Source: an uncultured Elusimicrobia bacterium
GTDB taxonomy: Bacteria; Elusimicrobiota; Elusimicrobia; 2-01-FULL-59-12
DNA: 64,000 nucleotides
Assembly: GCA_963702895.1 (NCBI GenBank)
Contig: OY969767.1
Location: 2,418,398-2,482,397, forward strand
Direction: 5' to 3'
In this document: piece by piece, positions 1 through 48,904 of the stretch
Numbering within the stretch: the first letter of the stretch is position 1
Layout of the letters: each line of letters begins with the position of its first letter
Notes under the pieces: generated by a model
Seen by the model: the letters and a program-made list of their open reading frames with translations, nothing else
Told to the model about the DNA's origin: nothing
The model's database searches: none
Translations under genes and position numbers: made by a program

Positions 1-3000
1 TTGACCTCGATCACCCGGACATCGAAGACTACATCAACTGGAAGGTCAAAGAAGAGCAAAAGGTGGCGGCTTTGGTCGCTGGGTCCAAGCTCTGCAAAAA
101 GCATCTGAACGAAATCATCAAAGCCGTTCACGCCTGGCCGGAAACCTCCGAGAAGCTTGACCGTAAAAAGAACACGCGCCTGGCCGCCGCCATCCGGGCC
201 GCCAGCGTCTCCATGGTCCCTCTGAATTACGTGGAGCGCGTCCTGGAGCTGGCCGCCCAAGGCGTCATCGAGATTGATTTTGACGAGTACAACACAGACT
301 GGACCTCGGAAGCTTACATCACGGTCTCAGGCCAAAACTCGAACAACTCGGTTCGCATCCCGAACGCCTTTATGGAAGCTCTGCTCGCGGATGGCGATTG
401 GCCGCTCTTCTGGCGCACAGAAAAGGAAAAAGCGGCCAAGGAAAAGCGTGATCCGAAGCCCTACCGGTCCGTCAAGGCAAAAGAACTCTGGGATCAGATC
501 TGCTACGCCGCATGGGCGTGCGCGGACCCTGGCCTGCAATTTGACACGATCATCAACGACTGGCACACCTGCCCCTCGGACGGCCGTATCAACGCTTCCA
601 ACCCCTGCGTGACAGGAGACACCCTCGTTTCCACCACGCAAGGCTATCGCAAAATCATTGATCTTGTGGGTCAGGAAGTTGAAATTGTGGCAGGCGATGG
701 ATCCTCGAAATGGATCAGCCAGGTTTTTCCCACCGGCCATCAGCCTATCTATGAATTAAAAACCGTCTCGGGCTATACCCTCCGTCTCACGGCGGACCAT
801 CGTGTTCTGACTGCCAACCGAGGGGATGTGCGAGCCTGTGAGCTGAGCCAAGACGATTGCGTGGTGTTAGGTCATGTGGGTTTTGGACCCGAATCGCTCC
901 CCAGCGCCGTGGCGGAGGTCATTGGTCTGGCCATCGGCGACGGATGCATTAATTCCGATGGCTATCTCATGATCAACATGGACCGCCTTCAGGAACAGAG
1001 GGTTCTGGAGGCCGCCTCGCGCACCATCAACGCTCTCAAACCAAACAAATTTGGAACGGTTCACTCTGGCGGCACGACCGCGCGGGTCGCGACCTGCGCC
1101 CCTGAGATTGTGCAAGTGGCGGACCACTACGCGGTGTTGGACCAGGGATCTGCCAAGAAGCAATTTTCGGACGCCGTTTGGTCTCTCAATAAAACCAGCC
1201 AGGCCGCTCTTCTCCGAGGTTTGTTCACGTCCGACGGAACGGTGGCCCATTATGGGGAGAAGAGCCACTATGTTGCGCTGGACAGCACTTCTCTTCTCCT
1301 TCTCCAGCAAGTTCAACAGCTCCTGCTTGGCTTCGGCATCAAGGCAAAGATTTACGAAAATCGTCGTGTTGCCGGCAATACCGTTTCTCTGCTTCCGGAT
1401 GGCAAAGGAGGCATCAAGCCTTACGCGGTTCAACAGATCCATTCCCTAAGAATCTCACGATCCTCTCGCCTCCTCTTTCAAAAGGAGATTGGATTCTTGC
1501 CGGATTCCCCAAAAACGGAAAAGCTGGCCGAACTGAATCGATCGATCAGCGTGTACGCGGATGTGATGGTCGATGAAGTGGCATCGCTTGTCCCTTGCGG
1601 TTCCGCTGATGTCTTTGATCTGACAGAACCCCAAACGCATCACTTTGTTGCCAATGGACTGGTGGTTCACAACTGCTCGGAGTACATGTTTCTGGACGAC
1701 ACGGCCTGCAATCTGGCCTCCATCAACCTGATGAAGTTCTACGACACCACCACGGCGCGCCTGGACATTGAAGCCTATCGCCATGCCGTGCGCCTGTGGA
1801 CGATCACCCTGGAAATCTCGGTGACCATGGCCCAATTTCCTTCCTACCCCATCGCGGAAAAATCTTACCTCTATCGGACGCTCGGTCTGGGGTACGCCAA
1901 CCTGGGGGCGCTCCTCATGGTTCAAGGGATCCCTTATGACTCCGACCGAGGGCGCGCGATCGCTGCGGCGCTGAGCGCCATCATGCACATGGGCGCCTAT
2001 GCGACGTCGGCCGAAATGGCTTCCGCGATCGGACCGTTCCCGCGCTTCGAGGCCAACCGAGACGCGATGTTGCGCGTGGTTCGGAACCATCGGCGCGCGG
2101 CCTACCCGACGAAGCGCGAAGACTACGAAGCCTTGACGGTCACGCCGCAGCACATCCGTCCTGAACACTGTCCGGAAGATCTGCTCAAGGGTGCACGCGA
2201 GGATGCGGACCGGGCCCTGGTGATGGGCGAACAGTTTGGGTACCGCAACGCACAGGTCACCGTCATTGCTCCGACGGGAACGATCGGCCTTTCCATGGAT
2301 TGCGACACGACGGGCATCGAGCCGGATTTCGCCCTGGTGAAATTTAAGAAACTGGCTGGCGGCGGCTATCTCAAGATCATCAATCAGACGGTTCCTCCGG
2401 CCCTGAAGACGCTGGGCTACACCACCCTGCAGGTCGACGATATCGTGCGCTATTGCAAAGGAGCCGGCACCCTCAAGGGCTGTCCCCATATCAACCCGGA
2501 CGCACTCAAGACAAAGGGCTTTACCGATGAGGTGATCGCCAAAGTCGAATCCGCGCTGCCCCAAGCCTTTGAAATCGGCTTCGCGTTTAACCAGTGGACC
2601 CTGGGAGAACCCTTCTGCAAAGAAACACTGAAAATCACGGAGGAGCAACTCCATGACTGGAGGTTCTCGATCCTCAAGCACATGGGTTTTTCGCAAGACG
2701 AGATTGCCATCGCGAACGAATACGTCTGCGGCACGATGACCCTGGAAGGAGCTCCACACCTCAAAGCCGAGCACATGCCGGTCTTTGACTGCGCCAATCG
2801 ATGCGGCGCCAAAGGCAAACGCTATATCGCGCCGCTCGCCCACCTGAAGATGATGGCCGCCGCTCAACCCTTCATCTCGGGCGCCATCTCCAAGACCATC
2901 AACCTCCCGCACGAAGCGACGCTTCGGGACATCAACGAAGCCTATGTGGAGTCCTGGCAGTTGATGCTCAAGGCGGTCGCGCTCTACCGCGATGGGTCGA

Positions 3001-3905
3001 AACTCTCTCAACCGCTGAACACCACCTCGGATTCCAGCGGCGACTCCACGATCACGATGGCGGACCTCCAGGAAGGGCCGCTCAAGATATCGGAGAAGAT
3101 TATTCACCGCTATATCGCGCGGCGCCGCCGGCTTCCTTATCGACGCTCCGGCTACACCCAAAAAGCCAAGATTGGGGGCCATACCATTTACCTTCGCACG
3201 GGGGAATACGAAGACAATGCCCTCGGCGAAATCTTCATCGACATGCATAAGGAAGGCGCGGCCTTCCGGAGCCTCATGAACTGCTTTTCCATCGCGATCT
3301 CATTGGGGCTTCAGCACGGTGTGCCGCTCGAAGAATTCGTGGAAGCCTTTGTTTTTACGCGTTTTGAGCCCAACGGGATGGTCCAGGGCAACCCGCAGAT
3401 TAAGATGACAACCTCCATCATCGACTACATCTTCCGGGAGCTCGCCATTTCCTATCTCAACCGGCAAGATTTGGCCCAGGTGACCACGGAGGACCTGCGT
3501 GCTTCTTCCGTCGGCGATCCGGGCGTACAACAGCCGGACTTCTCCGAAGAAGAAGTGGTGAGCGAACGCGTGGTGGACCCCAAGGACATGGCCCAGGTCT
3601 CGCCGACGCATGTGCCCAAGTCGACCCACCTCTCGAACGTGCAGCCCACTCCTCCGGGGCAAGGCACACACGCCATACCCATCAAGAACCAGGCGTCGGC
3701 GGGGGCCTCTTCTGCCGCGTCTTCGGCCGTTTCCCCTGCCATTGGATTCCGACCCCAAATGTCCGCCTTGGCAGACAAGGCCCGCGAGGCCAAGCTCAAA
3801 GGGTATGAAGGGGATCCCTGCCGAGAATGCGGCCAATTCACAATGGTCCGCAATGGCACCTGCCTGAAATGCGATACGTGCGGCACAACATCAGGATGTT
3901 CTTAA
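1..3905 (+). CDS. nrdJ: Class II (adenosylcobalamin-dependent) ribonucleotide reductase, 5'-truncated at window edge, interrupted by an intein
   Basis: Reading frame is open to the window start (frame 3, no upstream stop). Extein shows an RNR-like NPC(S)E active-site motif that is split by the insertion, class II-like blocks ([25 protein letters not shown]; [27 protein letters not shown]) and a C-terminal Cys-rich ribbon ([25 protein letters not shown]). Confidence 0.85.
606..1673 (+). other. Intein (Hint domain with LAGLIDADG homing-endonuclease motifs) inside nrdJ, 356 aa
   Basis: Insertion starts with Cys directly after INASNP and ends GLVVHN followed by Cys+1 (CSEYMFLDD). Contains LAGLIDADG-type motifs [13 protein letters not shown] and [12 protein letters not shown]. 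Removing it restores a contiguous NPCSE motif. Confidence 0.8.
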
Positions 3906-39432: not shown

Positions 39433-41820
39433 ATGACCATCACACCGCATTTTCGCCACTACCTGAGCCTCTTTTTGATGGCGATGAGCATCATTGTCTG
39501 GGAAATTTTGCTCACGCGCATCTACAGTGTGGTACTGTTCTACCATTTTGCGTTTATGGCTGTTTCGATTGCGATGTTTGGGCTCTCTATGGGCGCCGCT
39601 TGCGTCGCCCTGCAAAAAGTGGATCGTTCTTCAGAGTCTCCCCTGTCCGACCGTATGCTGGCAGCGCTCGGCCTGCTCACAGGGGTTCTCATGGTGCTGG
39701 CGATCACGTTGCAGTTAAGCTTGCCCATCCCGCCCACACGCAATCCGTGGCAGCTCTTTGGGGTACTTTTCCGAACGTACGTGCTTTCATCGCTTCCGTT
39801 TTTCCCGGCAGGGGCTTTTATATGTCTATTGCTTACGCGCTCCAAGCAAGTGGGACGGCTCTATGCTGTGGATTTGATCGCCGCAGGGCTTGGATGCGCG
39901 CTGATCCCCGTTCTTCTTTCAGTCTTCGGAGGCCCTGGGGCCACCCTGGTGGCAGCAGCGCTGGCCGGCGGTTCTGCTCTTTGTTTTCTCCCAAGGAAAT
40001 CACGCGCGTCCAGGGTGGCATGGCTTTTGGTCGTAGGGCTCTTGCTGGGGGCCTTGATCAACCGATCAGCCCAAGTCCTGCGCGTGCGTTGGCGGCACAA
40101 CGGCCCGGTTCCTATCCCTTTATTTGAAAAATGGAACTCCTTTTCGCGCATTATGATCCAGCCGGGCGGGTCCAGCAATCTGAATTGGGGAGTTGAAGAG
40201 ACCTGGAGACGTCAACTGACGCCGGCTCCTCAACTTCAGCTTGAAATTGACTCCGGGGCCGGGACCGCCATCACGCATTTTGACGGGAGACTGGAACCTC
40301 TTCGTTTTTTACAGTACGACATCACGTCGTTTGCTCATTACTTGCGGCCCCAATCCAAAGTGCTCATCATCGGGCCGGGCGGCGGCCGCGATGTGTTGGC
40401 GGCCTTAAGCTTCAAACAGGTCTCCGTGCATGCCGTTGAAGTCAACCCCTCTATTCTATACGCCGTCAATGACGTCTTCGGTGATTTCACGGGCCGCTTG
40501 AACAAACGCCCCGACGTTCACTTCGTGGTTGATGAAGGCCGGAGCTACTTACATCACGAACAACAACCCTTTGACATCATCCAAGCCTCCCTTGTGGATA
40601 CGGTGGCGGCCACGGCCTCTGGCGCCTATTCCTTTGTCGAAAACGGCCTCTACACCGTTGAAGCATGGCGGCTTTTTCTCCATCGGCTCACGCCGCGGGG
40701 CCTTCTGTCCTTTTCACGTTGGTATTTTGGGTCCACGACTTGGCCCGTGGAAGTGTGCCGCACGGTAGCGCTCGCCGCTGAAGCCCTCCGCCAGGAAAGC
40801 AAAAGACCTCAAGACCACATTCTGGTCATCCGCAACAGCAATTTGCGGCCGCCGAAAGAAGGCATCGCGACGGTCCTGGTCTCACGTGAACCCTTTTCAT
40901 CTTCGGACTGGGCCAAAGCTTTTGAAACATGCCGGCGGCTCCATTGCGAAATCGCTCTGGCCAAGGGACAAGGGGAACCTCTGCTCGCGTCCATCGTCGG
41001 GACCACCAACCCGCGCGCGCTGTACGCCGAACTTCCCTTGGACATCTCACCGCCCTCGGACAACAAACCTTATTTCTTTTTCCATGCAAGACTGCGGGAT
41101 ATTCTTCGGTTTCGTCAGAGCCCGCAATTCGGGGCCTCAGGCTTCAACTTGCCCGCCGTCCGCATTCTGGTCGAGTTAAGTTTGATTACGCTTGCTCTGT
41201 CCGCCCTCATGGTGGTTTGGCCCTACCGCATCCTAAGTCGCAGAACGTCTTGGGCGCCCGTGCCTGCTCGACGGTCTGTTGGGATGCCTTTCTATTTTGG
41301 ACTGATCGGTCTTGCTTTTATGTTCCTTGAAATTGGGTGGATGCAGCGCTTCAGCCTTTTCCTTGGTCACCCAACCTATGGGTTCACTGTGATATTGCTG
41401 GGACTTCTCGTCATGAGCGGTCTCGGGAGTTGGTGGGTCACTTCTACGAAGCTTTTGAGCGACCAATCGCGTCGGTGGATTCCATTGCTCCTCATTCCAC
41501 TTCTGCTCATCTCCAATAGGGTGGTCCAGATATTTTTGCCACAGTGGATGGGATCTCCCCTGGAGGTCCGCATTCTAATTACGCTGCTTTCGATCAGTCC
41601 TCCGGCGATCGTGATGGGCATGTTTTTCCCCCTGGCCATGGCGCCTGCTCAGCGCTGGATGGCGGACCGGGTAGGATGGCTATGGGCCATCAACGGCGCC
41701 CTGTCGGTGACAGGCTCCGTGCTCGCGATGGTTTGTTCGTTGGCGTTCGGCATCAGCGGGACTCTAATGCTGGGAACGGGCGCTTATTTCTTGGCTGCGA
41801 TCCTGCTTTTACTCCTCTAA
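39433..41820 (+). CDS. Membrane protein with central spermidine-synthase-like (SAM-dependent) domain flanked by transmembrane regions
   Basis: Multiple N- and C-terminal hydrophobic helices. Central VLIIGPGGGRDVLAALSFKQVSVHAVEVNPSILYAVNDVF ... FDIIQASL resembles the spermidine/spermine synthase fold. Confidence 0.7.
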   Translation: MTITPHFRHYLSLFLMAMSIIVWEILLTRIYSVVLFYHFAFMAVSIAMFGLSMGAACVALQKVDRSSESPLSDRMLAALGLLTGVLMVLAITLQLSLPIPPTRNPWQLFGVLFRTYVLSSLPFFPAGAFICLLLTRSKQVGRLYAVDLIAAGLGCALIPVLLSVFGGPGATLVAAALAGGSALCFLPRKSRASRVAWLLVVGLLLGALINRSAQVLRVRWRHNGPVPIPLFEKWNSFSRIMIQPGGSSNLNWGVEETWRRQLTPAPQLQLEIDSGAGTAITHFDGRLEPLRFLQYDITSFAHYLRPQSKVLIIGPGGGRDVLAALSFKQVSVHAVEVNPSILYAVNDVFGDFTGRLNKRPDVHFVVDEGRSYLHHEQQPFDIIQASLVDTVAATASGAYSFVENGLYTVEAWRLFLHRLTPRGLLSFSRWYFGSTTWPVEVCRTVALAAEALRQESKRPQDHILVIRNSNLRPPKEGIATVLVSREPFSSSDWAKAFETCRRLHCEIALAKGQGEPLLASIVGTTNPRALYAELPLDISPPSDNKPYFFFHARLRDILRFRQSPQFGASGFNLPAVRILVELSLITLALSALMVVWPYRILSRRTSWAPVPARRSVGMPFYFGLIGLAFMFLEIGWMQRFSLFLGHPTYGFTVILLGLLVMSGLGSWWVTSTKLLSDQSRRWIPLLLIPLLLISNRVVQIFLPQWMGSPLEVRILITLLSISPPAIVMGMFFPLAMAPAQRWMADRVGWLWAINGALSVTGSVLAMVCSLAFGISGTLMLGTGAYFLAAILLLLL

Positions 41821-44147
41821 GCCAATAATCCCCACGTGTGAAGGAGGTCCCCTTCATGCCGCCACCGGAACCCGATGTCGGTGCGGTAGAACATGTTGGG
41901 GATGATGATGGTTTTGACGCGGGAGTAGGCCTCGCGGTGGGCTTCTTCCATGGTGGACCCGGAACCGGTGATCACGAGCGCATACCCGTCGCGTCCCGTG
42001 ATCTTCCAGTCGCCGTCTTCGAGTTTGACGTCGCCAAGATGGATCCCGTCCATCCCAGGCTTGGTGAATATCACGACCGCGTCCTCGGAAAACTTGCGGA
42101 ACGTATCCAAGTCGGCAAAGGGCCAAGGAGGAAGCGCGATGACCACCCCCACCTGAAATCCTTTTTGTGTTTTGAGGTTATAGGGCTTTTTGTTAGCAAG
42201 CGCGTAGAGAAATTCTCCCCACGGGCTCTGGATGCCCTCCATTTGGATGCTGACCGTCGGGTAGCCAAAACGTGGGGTGATCTCCAAGGGGTAGACGTTG
42301 CGGGCCGTGGCGATGCAATTGATATCAAAATAACCCACGTAGCCTGCTTCTTTGAGGCGCGGCACCATTTTCTCGATCGTTTCGCGGTAGAGCCGGCTGG
42401 GTCCCGTCCAAAACATCGAGGTATTTCCACACCACAAAGGCTTTCCATTTCTCCTAACATAGAGCGTGTGATAAGGAACTGTGACACAGTAGACACGCCC
42501 TTTGTAATCAACCACGGTCGTATCTCTGCGGTCAAGCCACGCGTTTGTCTTTTGGATCCTTTCGATCACTTCGTAGCAGGGATGGACCTTTTGAAAGACT
42601 CTCGTTCCGATCTTGCCTCCACGACGTAAGCGCCGTTTGACGATTCCGACACGACCCATCTTGAGAAGCAGTTCTTGGACGTCGTCCGCTAATCGAGGAG
42701 AAGAGGTGTAGTAAATTCGAAAACCGGTGCGCTGTTTATTCCCGTCCCCTAAACACATATGGTCGAAGAGAATCGCTAATTGGCGAGGGGATTGCTCCTT
42801 GTATTCCGAGGGAATATATTTCGTGAGCGCGTGACCGAAAGGCTTAAGATACGCCCACAAGCGCTTGTCGTAGCATTTCCAGCCTCCTTTCACCTTTCTA
42901 AAACGGAATGGCAACCTTTCAATCGTCTCTTGAACGGCACGCGCCTTCCGGGCATTCACTTGAGAGATGCCGACCTGATAAGATTTCTCGGAAGTCCAGC
43001 CTTCCGCGAGCCAGAGCCCAAGGAATGCCAGCCAATGGTCCATCGCCATGAGCAAGGGCTGGAACTTGTCCCTGCTTAGGCCATGCCCAGAACGTCCTCT
43101 TAATGCAGGCAACGAAAACACGGCTTCTTCCTTGCCTTTCCAACAACCCGAGCGCGGCACCACAAATTGGTGGGGAAGATTTTTCGCTTTCACAAAGGTC
43201 CACTGTTTTTTCTTGCGATATCGCGTGGCTTCCTGGCCGAACATCTGGTGGTCGAGCGTCACAAGCAGATCGGTTGCTCGATTGCGAATACGGACCATTT
43301 TCTTGTGATGATCGAACTGAACAACAGCGGATGGTCTATGATATTCGATCTCATCGGACTCGGGGTTCACACTGGCAAAGCGATCCTCCAGAGAAACATC
43401 CCGAAATCTTTTCCAACCGCCCTGCGTAAGCACTTCCGTCTCCTCGTCATAACAGCCCATCTCTCCTGTAGAGGGGCCGATTTCACCGGCAAAGAGTTTC
43501 TTGTGCTCGAAGTTGATGCAGACGGGCATGATGAACTCTTGTCCATTGAAGAAACCACCGACCGCAACTTCAATACCTGAGACAAACTTTTGGATTTGCA
43601 GACGGCGCACTTTGGATCCCCAGCCGACTTTGTACCGGTCTAAAATCGCGACGACGTCTTTCCCGTCTTCTTCATGACCCACGAAAGAAAGGACTTTGTC
43701 GTTTTGCGCTTTGCCGGAGGGTTTCACCACGTAGCGGGCAGGATTTTTTATAACAAACTTGGTCGCTTCATCGAAGGAATCGAATTCCCAGGAGTCCGGG
43801 ATCGTGAGGCCCACGGCCTTCATCTCCTGAGCTCCGAAGTCGCGGTCAAGCTCCAAGCGATCTGAATAAGAAGATCCTCCGACCACGGGCTTGCCTTCTT
43901 TGCGCAGACGGTCCGCGATCGTCCCGAACGCGGCATCATCGATGATGATGAGGTCCGCCCAGTCTTTATGCGATTCCCATTCGTCCACTTTATCGAGAAA
44001 TCCATCATAGAGCACACGGTCGGCTTTGGACTGCACGAACCATTTGACGTTGTAGCCTTCGAGTTTGAGACGGTAAGCGAGGTCGCCCGCACAGGCCTCA
44101 AAGGAGAGGAAGAGAATATTTTTCGGTTTTCCGTTGCCGTTTGCCAT
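41817..44147 (-). CDS. Divergent PurD-like ATP-grasp ligase interrupted by an intein
   Basis: Extein matches the PurD family core (FEHKKLFAGEIGPSTGEMG; PLEITPRFGYP; C-terminal FYRTDIG) but lacks the canonical PurD N-terminal GGREHA motif. A 344-aa insertion sits between GEMG and TSMFW. Coordinates are from the ORF track; my hand reading of the printed sequence around 43440 and 44100 did not reproduce this frame exactly. Confidence 0.7.
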   Translation of the reverse strand: MANGNGKPKNILFLSFEACAGDLAYRLKLEGYNVKWFVQSKADRVLYDGFLDKVDEWESHKDWADLIIIDDAAFGTIADRLRKEGKPVVGGSSYSDRLELDRDFGAQEMKAVGLTIPDSWEFDSFDEATKFVIKNPARYVVKPSGKAQNDKVLSFVGHEEDGKDVVAILDRYKVGWGSKVRRLQIQKFVSGIEVAVGGFFNGQEFIMPVCINFEHKKLFAGEIGPSTGEMGCYDEETEVLTQGGWKRFRDVSLEDRFASVNPESDEIEYHRPSAVVQFDHHKKMVRIRNRATDLLVTLDHQMFGQEATRYRKKKQWTFVKAKNLPHQFVVPRSGCWKGKEEAVFSLPALRGRSGHGLSRDKFQPLLMAMDHWLAFLGLWLAEGWTSEKSYQVGISQVNARKARAVQETIERLPFRFRKVKGGWKCYDKRLWAYLKPFGHALTKYIPSEYKEQSPRQLAILFDHMCLGDGNKQRTGFRIYYTSSPRLADDVQELLLKMGRVGIVKRRLRRGGKIGTRVFQKVHPCYEVIERIQKTNAWLDRRDTTVVDYKGRVYCVTVPYHTLYVRRNGKPLWCGNTSMFWTGPSRLYRETIEKMVPRLKEAGYVGYFDINCIATARNVYPLEITPRFGYPTVSIQMEGIQSPWGEFLYALANKKPYNLKTQKGFQVGVVIALPPWPFADLDTFRKFSEDAVVIFTKPGMDGIHLGDVKLEDGDWKITGRDGYALVITGSGSTMEEAHREAYSRVKTIIIPNMFYRTDIGFRWRHEGDLLHTWGLLA
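42423..43454 (-). other. Putative intein with LAGLIDADG-like motifs inside the PurD-like gene (about 344 aa; boundaries approximate)
   Basis: Insertion begins with Cys (CYDEETEVLTQGG) right after the conserved GEMG loop and ends ...KPLWCGN followed by Thr+1. Internal motifs LGLWLAEGW and LFDHMCLGDGNK. The penultimate residue is Gly rather than the usual His. Confidence 0.6.
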
Positions 44148-44384
44148 GTTCCTCTATATGTATGGAATAAAACTTAAGAAATTGCCACTTATTTTTCTGT
44201 CCGGAGTCCTTTTTCATAAGACACTCGAAGCGTGTCTCAAGGAACATGAGGCGCAGCGCGTCTTTCATCGGTGATGCATCGTGATCGATCTGACCGTTTT
44301 TTTAAGAATGATCCGTCGTGCTTGCTCGGCACCCAGACGAGACGTGGACATTATTCTATTCGATAGGATGCTAAAATACTGAAT

Positions 44385-45206
44385 ATGAGACGGCGAGCTT
44401 GGCTTTCCTTGCTTCTTTTGGGGTTCTGTGTGTTCAATTTGGCTCCGGGGTCAGAGGCCCGCGTGAAGATTTCGAAGCTTGCTGAGAAATTGGTTTACGG
44501 CGACCAGCCCACGAGGCTCGCCGGGATTGAAGAGTTCAACAAGCTGCCCGCGGAAGCCCAGCAAAAACTGGTACCTGATTTTATGGTCGCCATGAGCGAT
44601 GAAGATCCAGAGGCCCGCAAAATCGCCTCTCGCATCTTGAAAGCGATGGGTGTCCAAGCGGAAGCCCAGGTCCCAGACGCGAAAAAGGAGATCGCCTCAG
44701 AGAAGTCCAAGACCAAGCCCATCGACAAGTGGGAAGAAGAGAAACGCTTAAAACAGGAGGCGAGTCAGGATAAGTGGGCTGATTTAAGAAGCATGCGCTC
44801 GGAAGAGCAGGGGGGCTACGCCTCCATGAAGCAACAACTCGAAAGCGAAAAGAAGGGCCAGGTGTGGATCGATCCCTCCCAGCTCACCACCGAGGCCTTG
44901 GACAAGACCTCGCCTCTCGGTTCTGTGACCGAGGCTTTGCGTGACTCGGATCCGTGGGTGAGAGCACAGGCCGCGCGGCGCCTCGGCACGATCCGGCCCG
45001 CGCCCGTGGAAGCCATCCCCGACCTCATCGCGATGCTGGGTGAGAACATCCCGGAGTCGCGCCGCGCGGCGGCCGCTGCGCTCGGTTCCTTTGGGCCCCT
45101 GGCGGAAAAAGCGCTTCCTGCCCTCACAACGGCCCTCTCCGACCCTGACCCCGCCACGCGGCAGATCGCGCAAGAGGCGATTAAGCAGATTCAAATGCAC
45201 CCGTGA
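44385..45206 (+). CDS. Secreted HEAT-repeat protein
   Basis: Signal peptide; C-terminal HEAT-like repeats (DSDPWVRAQAARRLGTI; ESRRAAAAALGSFG; DPATRQIAQEAIKQI). Confidence 0.6.
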   Translation: MRRRAWLSLLLLGFCVFNLAPGSEARVKISKLAEKLVYGDQPTRLAGIEEFNKLPAEAQQKLVPDFMVAMSDEDPEARKIASRILKAMGVQAEAQVPDAKKEIASEKSKTKPIDKWEEEKRLKQEASQDKWADLRSMRSEEQGGYASMKQQLESEKKGQVWIDPSQLTTEALDKTSPLGSVTEALRDSDPWVRAQAARRLGTIRPAPVEAIPDLIAMLGENIPESRRAAAAALGSFGPLAEKALPALTTALSDPDPATRQIAQEAIKQIQMHP

Positions 45207-48200
45207 CCCGAGACGATTTCAACAAACTCCTTCGCGAACAGGTTCTCGTCTTCGACGGGGCTACAGGCACCAACCTTCAGCTCCACAATCCCACCCTGGA
45301 CGACTATGCCGGCATGGAAGGCTGCACCGAAATTCTTCTTGAAACACATCCGGAATGGATCGAGGAGCTTCACGCCTCCTTCTTTAAAGCGGGATGCCAG
45401 GTCGTGGAGACCAATTCTTTTGGGGCGAATCGTATCGTTTTCACCGAATACGGTCTTGAGGACCGGGTTCATGAGTTTAATGTCAAAGCGGCCCAGCTTG
45501 CTCGGAAAGTCGCCCATGCCTTCAGCGCCCAAGACAAACCCCGTTTTGTCGCGGGCTCCATGGGTCCTGGCACGAAGCTTCCTTCTCTTGGACACACCAC
45601 TTTCGACACACTGCGCCATAACTACCAGGAACAAGCTGAAGGTCTGATCGACGGGGGCGTGGACATCCTCCTGATCGAAACCTGCCAGGATATCCTACAG
45701 GCCAAAGCCGCCACGGTGGGCGTTCTGGACGCTCTTTCCCGCAAGAAGAAGGACCTCCCGATCATGGTGCAGGTCACCGTGGAGTCCACGGGGACTTTGC
45801 TCTTGGGGACCGAAATGGCGGCGGTCATCTCCGCTTTGGAGCCCTATCCCATCGCTTCCCTCGGCATGAACTGTGCGACGGGCCCCCAGGAGATGTCGGA
45901 ACACGTGCGGATCCTGTCCCAGCAGTGGGCCCGGCCTATTTCTGTTCTTCCCAACGCGGGTTTACCCGAAAACGTGGGCGGACGAGCAGTCTATCGGCTC
46001 ACTCCTCAGGAGCTGGCCGAGCATCTGAAAGATTTCGTCACCCGGTTCGGGATCAATATCGTAGGCGGCTGCTGTGGGACCACGCCCGCGCATCTGGCTG
46101 AAGTCGTGAAAGTCATGGAGAAGATCAAGCCTGTTCCGAGAAGCCTCTCAAGCACCCCGGCTTGTTCAAGCCTCTACCTTCAAGTGCCCTTCAAGCAGGA
46201 GCCGAGGCCTCTTATCATCGGTGAACGCACGAATGCCAACGGCTCCAAGAAATTTCGTGAGCTGCTCGCCAAGGATGACTTTGATGCGATCGCCGCCATG
46301 GGAAAAGAAGAGGTGAACGAGGGCGCTCACATGATCGACCTCTGCACAGCTTTTGTGGGCCGGGACGAGGTCCGTGACATGAAGGAATGTGTGAGCCGCA
46401 TGGCGCTCCAGGTGCGCCTGCCGCTCATGATTGACTCCACCGAGGCCCCCGTGATTGAAGAAGCTCTTAAACGTGCGGGCGGACGCTGTGTCATCAATTC
46501 CATCAACCTGGAAGATGGCGAAGAAAGAATGAAGGCGGTCTGCCCTCTGGCCAAGACTTATGGCGCAGCCCTGGTGGCGCTCACAATCGACGAGCAAGGC
46601 ATGGCCAAAACCCGGCAAAAGAAGCTCGCCATCGCCAAGCGCATTCACGATCTGGCCATCAAGCGCTTCGGTCTGCGACCGGAAGATTTGCTGTTCGACG
46701 CTTTGACGTTTACGCTCGGTTCGGGTGACGAGGATTTTCGCAAGGCAGGTCTCGAGACCATCGAGGCCATCCGCCTGATCAAAAAGGAGCTCCCCGGAGT
46801 CTTCACCGTACTGGGCGTTTCCAATATCTCGTTTGGTCTGGCACCCCAGATCCGCCAGGTGTTGAACTCGGTGTTTCTCCATTACGCCATTGAAGCCGGT
46901 CTCGACGCTGCCATTGTCCACGCACGCAAGATCCTGCCCCTCTACAAAATCGATGAGAAAGGACGGGAGCTCGCTCGTAAATTGATTTTTGATGATCGCA
47001 CACCCCTCTCGTCATCCCCCGCGGGTGTCAGCGGGGGATCCATCATGATGGACCCCGGGTCTCCAAACAACAGGCGACCCGGCCCGCCGGACGTGTGGAG
47101 GGCCGGCTTACAATCCGCCGGGGTGACGGCTTCTTTTGATCCTCTGACCGCGCTCATGGCGCACTATGCCGAAACCTCAGAGATCTCTGCGAAAGCGAAT
47201 AAGGAAGAACCCAAGACCATCGAAGAGCATCTCAAGGTCCGTATCATCGACGGGAATAAACAGGGCCTGGAGGGACTGCTCGATGAGGCGATGAAGAAGT
47301 GGGGTCCGCTCGAGATCATCAACACCATACTGCTTGACGGGATGCGGGTGGTGGGCGATTTGTTTGGTTCGGGCCAGATGCAGCTCCCCTTCGTTCTTCA
47401 GTCCGCGGAAACCATGAAAGTGGCGGTGCGTCATCTGGAGCCCTTCATGCCTAAGGCGGACGCTGGTGTTCATAAAGGGAAGCTCGTCCTTGCGACCGTC
47501 AAAGGGGACGTTCACGACATCGGGAAGAACCTCGTCGATATCATCCTCACGAACAACGGCTACAAGGTTTTCAATTTGGGCATCAAGATGTCGATCGATG
47601 AGATCCTCAAGGCTGCCGCGGAAAAGAAGGCCGATGCGATCGGGATGTCAGGCTTGCTCGTCAAATCGACGGCGGTCATGAAGGAAAACTTAGAGGAGAT
47701 GAATAAACGAGGCGTGCAAACGCCGGTCCTTTTGGGTGGGGCGGCTCTCACGCGCCGATTTGTGGAAGAAGATCTCCGGCAGCTCTACAAGGGCTATGTC
47801 TATTATGGGGTGGACGCTTTTGCGGGGCTTCGCATCATGGACGAGCTGACCAACCCTTCCAGAGAAAAGAAGTTGACCCTCTATGAGACGCGTGGCGGTT
47901 CGGGCCAAACCTTGAAAGCGGGAGACTTGCCCTCACCCCACCCCTCTCCCGCCTTCGGCGGGAGAGGGCGGTCGCCAGACGCCTGGCGACCGGGTGAGGG
48001 CACGCTCTATATCCCTCTATCCCCCTCTCCTTCTATTCCTCATCCGCCGTTCTGGGGCAGCCGGGTCGCGCGAGGAATCGCTTTAAAGGATGTCTTCCCC
48101 TATATCAACGAAACGGCCCTCCTCAAAGTGCGCTGGGGCTTTTCCAGGGGGCAAACAAGCGCCGAAGATTACGCGCAACTCCTTAAGGAAACCGTTGGGC

Positions 48201-48904
48201 CGCTCTTTCAGAAGTGGAAAAACTACTGCCTTAAGGAGCAGATACTGGTCCCGCAAGTGGTTTACGGTTATTTCCCTTGCCTGTCTGAAGGAGATGATGT
48301 GGTGGTGTATAGGCCGGAAGATTTGAAAAAGGAATGGGTGCGCTTTAAATTCCCGCGACAAAACACGACTCCGATGCGATGTATCAGTGACTTCTTTCTC
48401 CAAAAGCCGTCATCCCGGCATGCTGTAAGCCGGGATCCATCAGACGTGATGGATCCCCCGCTAAAGTCCGCGGGGGATGACAGAAAGAATTTTGACGTAT
48501 TAGGTTGCTTTGTCGTGACGGTCGGAACCCAGGCAAGCAACAAAGCGCATGCCCTCTTCAAGGAGAACTCCTACAGCGATTATCTCTACCTGCACGGGCT
48601 AAGCGTGGAAACGGCCGAAGCCTTAGCCGAGCACTGGCACCGCCGCATGCGTGAGGAGCTGAACATCCACCAGGAAGATCACCCGGAGGTGCGTGAATGG
48701 TTTCACCAGAAGTACCATGGCGGTCGCTACTCTTTTGGGTATCCCGCCTGCCCCAACCTGGAAGATCAAGCAAAGCTTTTTGAACTGCTGGATCCCCAAC
48801 GCATTGGCGTAGCGCTCTCCGAAGCGTTTCAGTTAGACCCTGAGCAAAGCACCTCCGCCATCGTCCTGCACCACCCCGAAGCCAAATACTTTAACGTCCA
48901 GTAA
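45203..48904 (+). CDS. metH: Cobalamin-dependent methionine synthase (Hcy-binding, pterin-binding, B12-binding and AdoMet-activation domains) carrying three in-frame palindromic insertions
   Basis: Single 1233-aa ORF with Hcy-domain start (VLVFDGATGTNLQ), GCCGTTPAHL, B12-binding region and C-terminal activation domain. Start overlaps the upstream stop. Confidence 0.9.
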   Translation: MTRDDFNKLLREQVLVFDGATGTNLQLHNPTLDDYAGMEGCTEILLETHPEWIEELHASFFKAGCQVVETNSFGANRIVFTEYGLEDRVHEFNVKAAQLARKVAHAFSAQDKPRFVAGSMGPGTKLPSLGHTTFDTLRHNYQEQAEGLIDGGVDILLIETCQDILQAKAATVGVLDALSRKKKDLPIMVQVTVESTGTLLLGTEMAAVISALEPYPIASLGMNCATGPQEMSEHVRILSQQWARPISVLPNAGLPENVGGRAVYRLTPQELAEHLKDFVTRFGINIVGGCCGTTPAHLAEVVKVMEKIKPVPRSLSSTPACSSLYLQVPFKQEPRPLIIGERTNANGSKKFRELLAKDDFDAIAAMGKEEVNEGAHMIDLCTAFVGRDEVRDMKECVSRMALQVRLPLMIDSTEAPVIEEALKRAGGRCVINSINLEDGEERMKAVCPLAKTYGAALVALTIDEQGMAKTRQKKLAIAKRIHDLAIKRFGLRPEDLLFDALTFTLGSGDEDFRKAGLETIEAIRLIKKELPGVFTVLGVSNISFGLAPQIRQVLNSVFLHYAIEAGLDAAIVHARKILPLYKIDEKGRELARKLIFDDRTPLSSSPAGVSGGSIMMDPGSPNNRRPGPPDVWRAGLQSAGVTASFDPLTALMAHYAETSEISAKANKEEPKTIEEHLKVRIIDGNKQGLEGLLDEAMKKWGPLEIINTILLDGMRVVGDLFGSGQMQLPFVLQSAETMKVAVRHLEPFMPKADAGVHKGKLVLATVKGDVHDIGKNLVDIILTNNGYKVFNLGIKMSIDEILKAAAEKKADAIGMSGLLVKSTAVMKENLEEMNKRGVQTPVLLGGAALTRRFVEEDLRQLYKGYVYYGVDAFAGLRIMDELTNPSREKKLTLYETRGGSGQTLKAGDLPSPHPSPAFGGRGRSPDAWRPGEGTLYIPLSPSPSIPHPPFWGSRVARGIALKDVFPYINETALLKVRWGFSRGQTSAEDYAQLLKETVGPLFQKWKNYCLKEQILVPQVVYGYFPCLSEGDDVVVYRPEDLKKEWVRFKFPRQNTTPMRCISDFFLQKPSSRHAVSRDPSDVMDPPLKSAGDDRKNFDVLGCFVVTVGTQASNKAHALFKENSYSDYLYLHGLSVETAEALAEHWHRRMREELNIHQEDHPEVREWFHQKYHGGRYSFGYPACPNLEDQAKLFELLDPQRIGVALSEAFQLDPEQSTSAIVLHHPEAKYFNVQ
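47011..47127. repeat. Palindromic element pair lying in frame inside metH
   Basis: GTCATCCCCCGCGGG-TGTCA-GCGGGGGATCCATCATGATGGACCCCGGG ... GGCTTACAATCCGCCGGGGTGACGG. Encodes SSSPAGVSGGSIMMDPGSPNNRRPGPPDVWRAGLQSAGVTA. Confidence 0.6.
47930..48000. repeat. Nested palindrome (CCCTCACC ... GGGTGAGGG family) lying in frame inside metH
   Basis: CCCTCACCCCACCCCTCTCCCGCC-TTCG-GGCGGGAGAGGGCGGTCGCCAG-ACGC-CTGGCGACCGGGTGAGGG: an outer stem enclosing two hairpins, followed by a CT-rich tract. Encodes PSPHPSPAFGGRGRSPDAWRPGEG. Confidence 0.6.
48409..48482. repeat. Two opposed palindromic units lying in frame inside metH
   Basis: GTCATCCCGGC-ATGCTGTAA-GCCGGGATCCATCAGACGTGATGGATCCCCCGC-TAAAGTCC-GCGGGGGATGACAG. 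Confidence 0.6.

What the first reader, a model, noticed from the sequence alone, without database searches (positions are those of the whole stretch)
42423..43454. Putative intein in a divergent PurD-like ATP-grasp gene
A 344-aa insertion interrupts the ATP-grasp core exactly at the conserved glycine-rich loop (GEMG | TSMFW). It starts with Cys, ends with Asn followed by Thr, and has LAGLIDADG-like motifs. The host protein resembles PurD in its core and C-terminus but lacks the canonical N-terminal signature, so it may not be a true GAR synthetase. Inteins are best known in replication and nucleotide-metabolism proteins; I do not recognise this host as a known intein site. The penultimate residue is Gly rather than His.
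Basis: partly seen in the sequence, partly recalled or inferred. Interest (0 to 1): 0.6.

Follow-up and report, generated by a model that had tools for sequence, protein, structure and literature searches.

The report
Homing intein in PurD-like ligase gene
The 344-residue insert is a genuine self-splicing intein with its own homing endonuclease, sitting in the active-site loop of a PurD-like ATP-grasp enzyme; the element is an ordinary kind, but I found no description of this host, which turns out to carry related inteins at five or more sites across bacteria, archaea and phages.

Summary
Observation confirmed exactly. ORF 41817-44147 (-) encodes a 776-aa precursor, and residues 232-575 (window 42423-43454) lie between GEMG and TSMFW.

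Interpretation supported:
- Orthologues up to 91% identical lack the insert and read GEMG|T without a gap.
- 98 full-length homologues of the insert sit in unrelated host proteins (ThyX, MCM, DNA ligase, methylases, terminase). All begin at Cys1 and end Gly-Asn before Ser, Thr or Cys.
- A family profile hits solved inteins (PI-PkoII, 4e-18).
- An AlphaFold model (pLDDT 93) matches the TliVMA, PI-SceI and PI-PfuI inteins.

All splicing residues and both LAGLIDADG acidic residues are present. The penultimate Gly is invariant in this intein family, and a phage intein with penultimate Gly has been shown to splice.

The host has the GAR synthetase fold but fails the PurD family tests. It scores 109 bits against a cutoff of 288, has no GARS_N match, and reads E-x-T / RFGYPT where PurD has E-x-N / RFGDPE.

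The same-site intein occurs in 20 species-representative genomes: Elusimicrobiota, DPANN archaea and Saccharibacteria. The host family carries related inteins at five or more sites, sometimes two in one protein, and also occurs in phage contigs.

Verdict: a new member of a known kind, of moderate interest.

The parts
41817..44147 (-). Precursor gene: PurD-like ATP-grasp ligase interrupted by an intein (776 aa, 89.0 kDa; stop codon at 41817-41819)
   Evidence: The exact protein is in NCBI/ENA on a 2.72-Mb contig.
44150..44154 (-). GAGGA Shine-Dalgarno-like sequence 4 nt upstream of the ATG
   Evidence: Read directly from the sequence. Function is inferred.
43455..44147 (-). N-extein, residues 1-231, ending ...NFEHKKLFAGEIGPSTGEMG
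   Evidence: Pfam GARS_A 4.8e-13.
42423..43454 (-). Intein, residues 232-575 (344 aa, 40.4 kDa, pI 9.9)
41817..42422 (-). C-extein, residues 576-776, starting with Thr+1 (TSMFWTG...), plus the stop codon
   Evidence: Pfam GARS_C.
43425..43454 (-). Splicing block A, CYDEETEVLT. Cys1 (precursor C232) is the N-terminal nucleophile
   Evidence: Cys1 is present in 99/99 family members. Coordinates.
43239..43271 (-). Splicing block B, DLLVTLDHQMF, holding the TxxH motif (T66/H69 of the intein = precursor T297/H300)
   Evidence: T in 97/99 and H in 99/99. Both are 24/24 in same-site inteins.
42630..43055 (-). LAGLIDADG homing-endonuclease domain (intein residues ~134-275)
   Evidence: Secondary structure of the AF2 model. 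Foldseek hits to I-DmoI and I-Tsp061I. PF14528 above its gathering score.
42996..43034 (-). LAGLIDADG motif 1, WLAFLGLWLAEGW; catalytic acid is E151
   Evidence: Position 151 is E or D in 95/99 and in 22/24 same-site inteins.
42735..42770 (-). LAGLIDADG motif 2, LFDHMCLGDGNK; catalytic acid is D237
   Evidence: D in 97/99. D or E in 22/24 same-site inteins.
42444..42497 (-). Splicing block F, RVYCVTVPYHTLYVRRNG. Cys323 stands at position F:4, where Asp is commonest, and His329 follows
   Evidence: C323 in 96/99 and H329 in 69/99. Both are 24/24 in same-site inteins.
42423..42443 (-). Splicing block G, KPLWCGN. Penultimate Gly343 and terminal Asn344 (precursor N575)
   Evidence: G343 in 99/99 and N344 in 99/99.

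Best explanation
The insert is a full-size class 1 intein: a Hint splicing domain split by a two-motif LAGLIDADG homing endonuclease. It lies in the flexible GPSTGEMG loop of the ATP-grasp active site of a PurD-fold ligase.

Proposed mechanism (inferred from conserved residues and published intein chemistry, not shown here):
1. The 89-kDa precursor is translated. It is presumably inactive, because the catalytic loop is interrupted.
2. Cys232 (intein Cys1) makes a thioester with Gly231, helped by Thr297 and His300 of block B.
3. The N-extein is transferred to the hydroxyl of Thr576 (+1).
4. Asn575 cyclises and releases the intein. The penultimate residue is Gly, so the helper is probably the block F His (H560 of the precursor).
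5. An O-to-N shift gives the 48.7-kDa enzyme reading ...GEMG-TSMFW..., identical in layout to the intein-free orthologues.
6. The freed 40-kDa intein would act as a site-specific endonuclease. It would cut intein-free alleles around GGAGAGATGGGC|ACCTCGATGTTT and be copied in by repair (homing). This would account for its patchy spread.

The host is a PurD paralogue whose substrate is unverified.
For: - Clean presence/absence. Orthologues of 79-91% identity are 432-438 aa long and read GEMG|T with no gap. One of them is the syntenic locus L026.
- Boundaries. All 98 full-length homologues in unrelated hosts start at Cys1 and end G-N before S (79), T (10) or C (10).
- Catalytic set. C1, T66, H69, C323, H329, G343 and N344 are 24/24 in same-site inteins.
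- Profile. The family profile hits PI-PkoII at 4e-18, TliVMA at 4e-14, and the AceL NrdHF, KlbA and RecA inteins.
- Fold. The AF2 model has pLDDT 93.2 and pTM 0.91. Its Foldseek top hits are the TliVMA, PhoVMA, PI-PkoII, PI-SceI and PI-PfuI inteins, E 2e-17 to 1e-12.
- Endonuclease. PF14528 passes its threshold, and E151 and D237 are present. Against L001 and L002, the endonuclease domain has dN 0.16-0.19 with dS saturated, which indicates purifying selection.
- Foreign composition. GC3 is 0.56 in the intein against 0.62 and 0.74 in the exteins.
- Spread. The same-site intein is in 20 GTDB species genomes from both domains.
- Literature. [quoted passage not shown] A penultimate-Gly phage intein splices, and a block F His can take over the role (PMC5050341).
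- Reconstituted host. The spliced extein aligns without a break to PurD structures across the junction.
Against: - No experiment: splicing and DNA cleavage are both inferred.
- The curated intein HMMs are below threshold. Pfam Intein_splicing scores 15.2 against 35.8, and TIGR01445 scores 18.5 against 24.5.
- The single sequence finds no PDB chain.
- The penultimate His is absent, and F:4 is Cys rather than Asp. The exact catalytic route and the splicing rate could therefore differ from textbook class 1.
- Endonuclease activity of this particular copy is unproven. Two of the 24 same-site relatives have lost an acidic residue.
Confidence: 0.88

Rival explanations
1. The intein uses a class 3-like or hybrid route. 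The conserved block F Cys (C323), rather than Cys1, would attack the N-terminal junction. Alternatively, the conserved cysteines (C1, C323, C342) would form disulfides that make splicing depend on redox state. Either way it would still be an intein, but with non-standard chemistry or regulation.
For: Cys at F:4 is present in 96/99 family members, and Cys at G:5 in 79/99. Both are 24/24 in same-site inteins. Class 3 inteins are defined by a nucleophilic Cys at F:4 (PMC4031507).
Against: Only one residue of the class 3 Trp-Cys-Thr triplet is present. B:12 is Met or Leu (Trp in 1/99), and G:5 is Cys or Ser (Thr in 3/99). Cys1 is invariant, whereas class 3 inteins arose through loss of that nucleophile. 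Some site-b inteins of the same family have the canonical Asp at F:4 (VWDVEV), so Cys and Asp look interchangeable helper residues. F:4 Cys is the second most common residue among inteins in general (PMC4031507).
Confidence: 0.08
2. The insert is a decayed, splicing-dead intein. The gene would then be a pseudogene, or the protein would tolerate a permanent 344-aa insertion.
For: The penultimate His is absent, and the curated intein HMMs are below threshold. Splicing was not tested.
Against: Every known catalytic position is intact and is invariant across 24 same-site inteins from two domains of life. The ORF is uninterrupted in the window and in all 20 GTDB loci. dN is low while dS is saturated. 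The insertion interrupts an invariant active-site loop, so an unspliced protein could hardly function, yet the exteins remain under strong constraint (dN 0.09-0.11).
Confidence: 0.04
3. The insert is a conserved, non-intein accessory domain of this enzyme family.
For: None beyond the bare fact of an in-frame insertion.
Against: All 120 best extein homologues lack it. The closest relatives (91% identity) lack it, while more distant ones (85%) have it. The same module sits in ThyX, MCM, DNA ligase, methylases, terminase and others.
Confidence: 0.01

Closest known systems
Mycobacteriophage Bethlehem gp51 (RDF) intein and other phage class 1 LAGLIDADG inteins (PMC5050341)
   Same: Class 1 layout with Cys1, an embedded homing endonuclease and penultimate Gly. 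That intein was shown experimentally to splice, and the G316H change slowed splicing. Sequence relatives of the window intein in cultured phages are 26-30% identical over 100% of its length. They sit in mycobacteriophage nucleotidyltransferase and methylase genes, the Gordonia phage GMA6 terminase and the Corynebacterium phage P1201 thymidylate synthase.
   Different: The host protein and insertion site differ, and identity is only about 26-30%. The window intein also has Cys at F:4 and Cys at G:5. I did not check whether Bethlehem gp51 itself is a sequence relative.
TliVMA / PhoVMA inteins (7qsu, 7qss, 7qst) and PI-PkoII (2cw7), PI-SceI, PI-PfuI
   Same: Same two-part architecture: a Hint splicing domain plus a LAGLIDADG endonuclease. 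These are the best fold matches (E 2e-17 to 1e-12, TM about 0.6-0.67) and the best profile matches.
   Different: Only 10-15% sequence identity. They sit in V-ATPase, DNA polymerase or RNR hosts. The window intein is smaller (344 aa against 360-540 aa).
Class 3 inteins (e.g. MP-Be DnaB, AceL NrdHF 6zgq)
   Same: Cys at block F position 4. The AceL NrdHF intein is a significant profile hit (3e-10) and fold hit.
   Different: The Trp-Cys-Thr triplet is incomplete and Cys1 is retained. The window intein is not a member of this class.
GAR synthetase PurD (EC 6.3.4.13; e.g. 2yrx, 1gso)
   Same: The host has the same domain organisation and fold: the top 15 PDB matches are all PurD, TM 0.66-0.73. 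Shared motifs include HK...GPxTGxMG and FYRxDIG.
   Different: 18-23% identity. TIGR00877 scores 109 bits against a cutoff of 288. No GARS_N match. E-I-T replaces E-F-N, RFGYPT replaces RFGDPE, and GKAQNDKV replaces GLAAGKGV. The family is found in CPR, DPANN and phage genomes.

Membership tests
Intein (Hint-domain protein-splicing element), class 1 | In-frame insertion in a conserved host protein that is precisely absent from orthologues | tested here: met
   Intein-free orthologues up to 91% identical read GEMG|T with one clean 344-aa gap. The syntenic locus L026 is also intein-free.
Intein (Hint-domain protein-splicing element), class 1 | Cys or Ser as first residue (N-terminal nucleophile) | tested here: met
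   Cys1. Present in 99/99 family members.
Intein (Hint-domain protein-splicing element), class 1 | Block B Thr-x-x-His | tested here: met
   VTLDH: T66 and H69. T in 97/99 and H in 99/99.
Intein (Hint-domain protein-splicing element), class 1 | C-terminal Asn followed by Cys, Ser or Thr at +1 | tested here: met
   N344|T+1. Family: N in 99/99; +1 is S 79, T 10, C 10. Thr+1 is an accepted nucleophile (PMC4031507).
Intein (Hint-domain protein-splicing element), class 1 | Penultimate His (G:6). Common, but not obligatory | tested here: not met
   Gly343, invariant in 99/99. Inteins without this His are documented to splice (PMC5050341; Chen et al. 2000, cited in PMC4031507).
Intein (Hint-domain protein-splicing element), class 1 | Hint fold and homology to bona fide inteins | tested here: met
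   The profile hits solved inteins at 4e-18 to 1e-2. The AF2 model (pLDDT 93) matches intein structures.
Intein (Hint-domain protein-splicing element), class 1 | Passes the curated intein HMM thresholds (Pfam PF14890, TIGR01445) | tested here: not met
   PF14890 scores 15.2 bits against 35.8. TIGR01445 scores 18.5 against 24.5. The weak matches fall in the right places, so this looks like a sensitivity limit for this subfamily.
Intein (Hint-domain protein-splicing element), class 1 | Autocatalytic excision with extein ligation | not testable with these tools
   Requires expression plus Western blot or mass spectrometry.
LAGLIDADG homing endonuclease (two-motif, monomeric) | Two LAGLIDADG helices, each ending in a catalytic Asp or Glu | tested here: met
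   FLGLWLAEG (E151) and MCLGDG (D237). PF14528 scores 33.3 bits against 22.5.
LAGLIDADG homing endonuclease (two-motif, monomeric) | Endonuclease fold | tested here: met
   Foldseek matches to I-DmoI, I-Tsp061I and I-SceI, E 7e-5 to 2e-3.
LAGLIDADG homing endonuclease (two-motif, monomeric) | Cleaves the intein-free allele (homing) | not testable with these tools
   Indirect support only: a sporadic distribution and purifying selection on the domain.
Class 3 inteins | Trp (B:12), Cys (F:4), Thr (G:5) triplet, with Cys F:4 as the initiating nucleophile | tested here: not met
   B:12 is Met (family Leu/Met; Trp in 1/99). F:4 is Cys. G:5 is Cys (Thr in 3/99). Cys1 is invariant. The definition comes from PMC5050341 and PMC4031507.
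GAR synthetase PurD (TIGR00877 / EC 6.3.4.13) | Score above the equivalog cutoff | tested here: not met
   The spliced extein scores 109.5 bits against a cutoff of 288. The alignment covers model positions 79-422 only.
GAR synthetase PurD (TIGR00877 / EC 6.3.4.13) | GARS_N + GARS_A + GARS_C domain set | tested here: not met
   GARS_A scores 47.9 bits (gathering score 27). GARS_C scores 34.3 for the spliced extein and 35.3 for the precursor (gathering score 34.8). There is no GARS_N hit at E<=1, and none of the 120 homologues lists PF02844.
GAR synthetase PurD (TIGR00877 / EC 6.3.4.13) | PurD fold | tested here: met
   Model of the 91%-identical orthologue P0001: the top 15 PDB hits are all GAR synthetases, TM 0.66-0.73.
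GAR synthetase PurD (TIGR00877 / EC 6.3.4.13) | Conserved E-x-N metal site and the R-[LF]-G-D-P-E signature (signature recalled from memory) | tested here: not met
   The family invariantly reads L-E-x-T-x-R-F-G-Y-P-T.
GAR synthetase PurD (TIGR00877 / EC 6.3.4.13) | Ligates glycine to phosphoribosylamine | not testable with these tools
   Needs an enzyme assay or purD complementation.

The most novel reading that the evidence does not exclude
The host is not GAR synthetase. It is an uncharacterised, strongly conserved ATP-grasp ligase shared by phages (where it sits next to DNA-ejection and tail-fibre genes), CPR bacteria, DPANN archaea and Elusimicrobiota. It is also an unusually heavily invaded intein host for a metabolic-type enzyme: at least five insertion sites within about 60 residues of active-site motifs, with double-intein alleles. 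Its intein load would then flag a phage-linked enzyme of unknown chemistry. The Cys-rich, His-less splicing site (C1 / C at F:4 / C at G:5 / G at G:6) might tune or gate its maturation.
Probability: 0.35. Interest if true: 0.6.

Novelty: new member of a known kind. Interest (0 to 1): 0.4.

Why it matters
Inteins mark residues that a protein cannot afford to change. Five insertion sites packed into the catalytic motifs of one ATP-grasp family, found in phages, ultra-small bacteria and archaea, and free-living bacteria, suggest two things. The family is probably important, and it has probably been exchanged or attacked through viruses. Neither point is visible in current annotation, which calls these genes 'PurD' or 'hypothetical protein'.

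There are practical consequences:
- Gene callers and annotation pipelines mis-size or mislabel these genes.
- Metabolic reconstructions that count the gene as purD in CPR or DPANN genomes may be wrong.
- The intein belongs to a compact (~344 aa), very abundant, phage-borne subfamily with an invariant penultimate Gly and Cys at F:4. That makes it a natural set for studying how splicing works without the canonical His and Asp.

The element itself is a textbook intein, so a specialist would not find it very surprising.

Tried and rejected
- The single-sequence phmmer of the insert against PDB gave no hits. Only the family profile worked.
- The curated intein HMMs were sub-threshold, so I did not rely on them.
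- A class 3 mechanism was considered because of Cys at F:4. I rejected it on the Trp-Cys-Thr triplet and the invariant Cys1, and on the Asp/Cys interchange at F:4 within the family.
- Host function from gene neighbourhood: clustering ORFs of 28 cellular loci found no conserved neighbour.
- Naming the source organism failed. An Elusimicrobiota origin is only inferred, from L001 and L002 at about 85% extein identity.
- No canonical purD or other pur gene turned up among the ten window ORFs I scanned, so whether the genome has a true purD remains open.
- Five literature searches for an intein in PurD / GAR synthetase / ATP-grasp proteins, or in DPANN, found nothing relevant. The 'PurD' hits were the author name Purde.
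- Structure comparison of the host against viral models (BFVD) gave only generic ATP-grasp hits. The afdb50 library was unavailable.
- PHROGs has no family for the extein.
- I suspected a naturally split gene because several database entries start at 'MGC...'. These are artefacts: a contig edge for P0123, and a scaffold gap of Ns causing a frame change for P0126.
- The promoter and terminator scan around the gene found nothing above chance.
- The spliced extein could not be submitted for structure prediction, so I modelled the 91%-identical natural intein-free orthologue P0001 instead.
Full report
**Observation.** The region lies inside one uninterrupted ORF, 41817..44147 on the minus strand, 776 codons. 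A GAGGA ribosome-binding sequence lies 4 nt before the ATG. Translating the ORF and locating the motifs gives ...GPSTGEMG|CYDEETEVLT...GKPLWCGN|TSMFWTG. It starts with Cys, ends Gly-Asn and is followed by Thr.

**The insert is absent from orthologues.** I searched 5.8 billion proteins with the joined flanks (432 aa). The search returned more than 4,600 relatives at E<=1e-10. The best 120 are 406-554 aa long, and the closest 30 are 78-91% identical and mostly 430-440 aa. In a 24-sequence alignment these proteins read GEMG directly followed by T, with one clean gap spanning the insert. One intein-free orthologue, P0019 in locus L026, lies in the same gene neighbourhood as the window: GltX, the PurD-like gene, a HEAT-repeat protein, MetH and a YhdP-like protein. 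Its DNA across the empty site is close to the window's two flanks joined together. This rules out a conserved accessory domain.

**The insert is a module found in unrelated hosts.** Searching with the insert alone gave 227 hits. Local re-alignment showed 98 proteins that cover it from residue 1 to 344. Their hosts carry ThyX, MCM, DNA ligase, thymidylate synthase, methyltransferase, prohead protease, PHP-domain and other domains. In every one, the aligned module begins with Cys and ends Gly-Asn immediately before Ser, Thr or Cys. Boundary-exact recurrence in unrelated proteins is the signature of an intein.

**Splicing motifs are all present.**
- Block A: CYDEETEVLT. Cys1 is present in 99/99 family members.
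- Block B: VTLDH. Thr is present in 97/99 and His in 99/99.
- LAGLIDADG motif 1: FLGLWLAEG. Position 151 is Glu or Asp in 95/99.
- LAGLIDADG motif 2: CLGDG. Asp237 is present in 97/99.
- Block F: VYCVTVPYH. Cys323 is present in 96/99 and His329 in 69/99.
- Block G: WCGN. Gly343 and Asn344 are each present in 99/99.

**Homology and fold.** The curated models are only partly helpful. Pfam LAGLIDADG_3 passes (33.3 bits against 22.5). Intein_splicing (15.2 against 35.8) and TIGR01445 (18.5 against 24.5) do not pass. The single sequence finds nothing in PDB. A 30-sequence family profile does hit solved inteins: PI-PkoII at 4e-18, the Thermococcus and Pyrococcus VMA inteins at 4e-14, AceL NrdHF at 3e-10, and KlbA, RecA, PI-PfuI and PI-SceI. 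AlphaFold2 on that alignment gave a confident model (pLDDT 93.2, pTM 0.91). Its best PDB matches are full-size inteins (TliVMA, PhoVMA, PI-PkoII, PI-SceI, PI-PfuI; E 2e-17 to 1e-12). After those come mini-inteins, the Hedgehog autoprocessing domain, and free-standing LAGLIDADG enzymes such as I-DmoI.

**The unusual residues.**
- The mycobacteriophage Bethlehem gp51 intein also has penultimate Gly. It splices well, and changing that Gly to His slows it. The same paper notes that a block F His can take over the role (PMC5050341). The window intein keeps such a His (H329).
- I considered class 3 chemistry because of Cys at F:4. The defining Trp-Cys-Thr triplet is not there: B:12 is Met or Leu, and G:5 is Cys or Ser. 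Cys1 is invariant. Some family members at another site of the same host have Asp at F:4.
- A standard class 1 pathway is therefore the best reading. A hybrid or redox-gated variant is a low-probability rival.

**Is the element alive?**
- In 24 inteins at this same site, C1, T66, H69, C323, H329, C342, G343 and N344 are all 24/24. The two endonuclease acids are 22/24 each, and the window copy has both.
- Against the two closest intein-bearing genomes (L001, L002), synonymous sites are saturated. dN is only 0.20-0.23 for the whole intein and 0.16-0.19 for the endonuclease domain, against 0.09-0.11 for the exteins. The whole element, endonuclease included, is therefore under purifying selection.
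- Its GC3 (0.56) is below that of the exteins (0.62 and 0.74) and of neighbouring genes (0.64-0.72).
- The distribution is patchy. The closest relatives (91% identity) lack the intein, while relatives at about 85% carry it, with the intein itself at 72-74% identity.

All of this fits a homing element. Splicing and cleavage themselves remain untested.

**Distribution.**
- A scan of one genome per GTDB species found the intein at this exact site in 20 genomes. They are two Elusimicrobiota MAGs (about 85% extein identity, the likely neighbourhood of the window's organism), many DPANN archaea (Micr-, Aenigm-, Iain- and Woesearchaeota), two MAGs labelled Nitrososphaerales, and a Saccharibacteria MAG. 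All have intact ORFs.
- The scan patterns came mostly from the intein, so this is not a frequency estimate.
- In cultured phages it occurs at 26-30% identity in mycobacteriophage nucleotidyltransferase and methylase genes, the Gordonia phage GMA6 terminase and the Corynebacterium phage P1201 thymidylate synthase.

**The host is an intein hot spot.** An exhaustive phmmer search of 1.84 billion cluster representatives with the precursor, plus inspection of the long PurD-like hits and of loci L022, L116, L119, L140 and L146, shows related inteins (31-45% identical to the window's) at five or more positions:
- a: GEMG|T, the window's site.
- b: (L)EFT|CRFGYP.
- c: GPN|[ST]GEMG.
- d: D(I/L)N|CIAT.
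- e: just before CNFEHK.

Two proteins carry two inteins each: P0244 (1123 aa) at sites a and b, and P0256 (1152 aa) at sites c and b. All five sites lie in invariant catalytic motifs.

**What the host is.**
- The spliced protein aligns over almost its whole length to PurD structures, straight across the junction: GPSTGEMG|TSMFW against GPNTGGMG|AYSP.
- A model of the 91%-identical natural intein-free orthologue (pLDDT 81) has GAR synthetases as its top 15 PDB matches, TM 0.66-0.73 at 18-23% identity.
- The GEMG loop is the low-confidence, presumably mobile, segment just before a core strand.
- The protein nevertheless fails the tests for PurD itself. TIGR00877 scores 109.5 bits against a cutoff of 288 and aligns only from model position 79. 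There is no GARS_N match here or in any of 120 relatives. E-x-T replaces the E-x-N metal site. RFGYPT replaces RFGDPE. GKAQNDKV replaces the GLAAGKGV loop.
- The family has no conserved gene neighbour.
- It occurs in CPR and DPANN genomes and in 38 viral contigs. In several of those it sits between DNA-ejection and tail-fibre genes.
- I therefore file it as a PurD-fold paralogue of unverified substrate. I could not check whether the source genome also has a canonical purD.

**Comparison with what is known, and verdict.** The element is an ordinary kind: a class 1 intein with a LAGLIDADG homing endonuclease, in an active-site loop, as inteins usually are. Three things appear to be new. I found no published description of this host or these insertion sites in 7.7 million PMC papers and bioRxiv. 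The number of sites in one non-replication enzyme family is unusual. The allele is spread across domains and viruses. Database entries for it are unnamed, called 'hypothetical protein', or truncated by contig edges or scaffold gaps. I rate it a new member of a known kind, interest 0.4. The open question of the host's real function is the part most worth following.

Noticed in passing
window 47000-47125, 47942-47995, 48413-48451 (inside metH, 45203-48904 +): MetH is 74 aa longer than its 78%-identical syntenic orthologue in L026, because of three in-frame insertions. Two of them carry GC-rich palindromes, TCCCCCGC-N8-GCGGGGGA (47015-47038 and 48454-48477). Further inverted arms lie at 47103-47132 and 48404-48433. 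None is expected by chance. They look like small palindromic repeat elements inserted in frame into a coding sequence.
   Followed up: partly
L132, L129, L146 and other IMG/VR loci L109-L146: Homologues of the PurD-like host (30-54% identity, about 410-445 aa) are encoded on viral contigs. In several they sit between DNA-ejection proteins and tail-fibre proteins, that is, in or next to the virion structural module. That is an odd place for a 'purine biosynthesis' enzyme.
   Followed up: partly
P0244 (1123 aa), P0256 (1152 aa), P0263, P0304; loci L022, L116, L119, L140, L146: The host family carries related inteins at five or more sites, and some alleles carry two. Site-b inteins often have Asp at F:4 and end F-S-G-N.
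   Followed up: yes
L146 (ends FIGQ|T); P0250 (YWCGQ|T), P0332 (CWNGQ|T), P0374 (FFCGQ|C): Some inteins of this family in PurD-like hosts end in Gln instead of Asn.
   Followed up: no
L022 (CAYIUF010000006.1): This record is titled 'uncultured Gammaproteobacteria bacterium', but its flanking genes are syntenic with the Patescibacteria loci L023 and L024. The label is probably a binning or naming error.
   Followed up: partly
window 39433-41820 (+): A 795-aa multi-pass membrane protein with no Pfam match at E<=1e-5. It converges on the PurD-like gene with a 4-nt overlap (41817-41820). It lies between gltX and the PurD-like gene, where the syntenic locus L026 has nothing.
   Followed up: no
L147 (ENA scaffold_55696), about 2900-3034: An intein-bearing PurD-like gene is called as two overlapping genes because a run of Ns in the scaffold shifts the frame. 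P0123 is cut by a contig edge. Other intein-bearing hits are also incomplete at one end, and none exceeds about 600 aa.
   Followed up: yes
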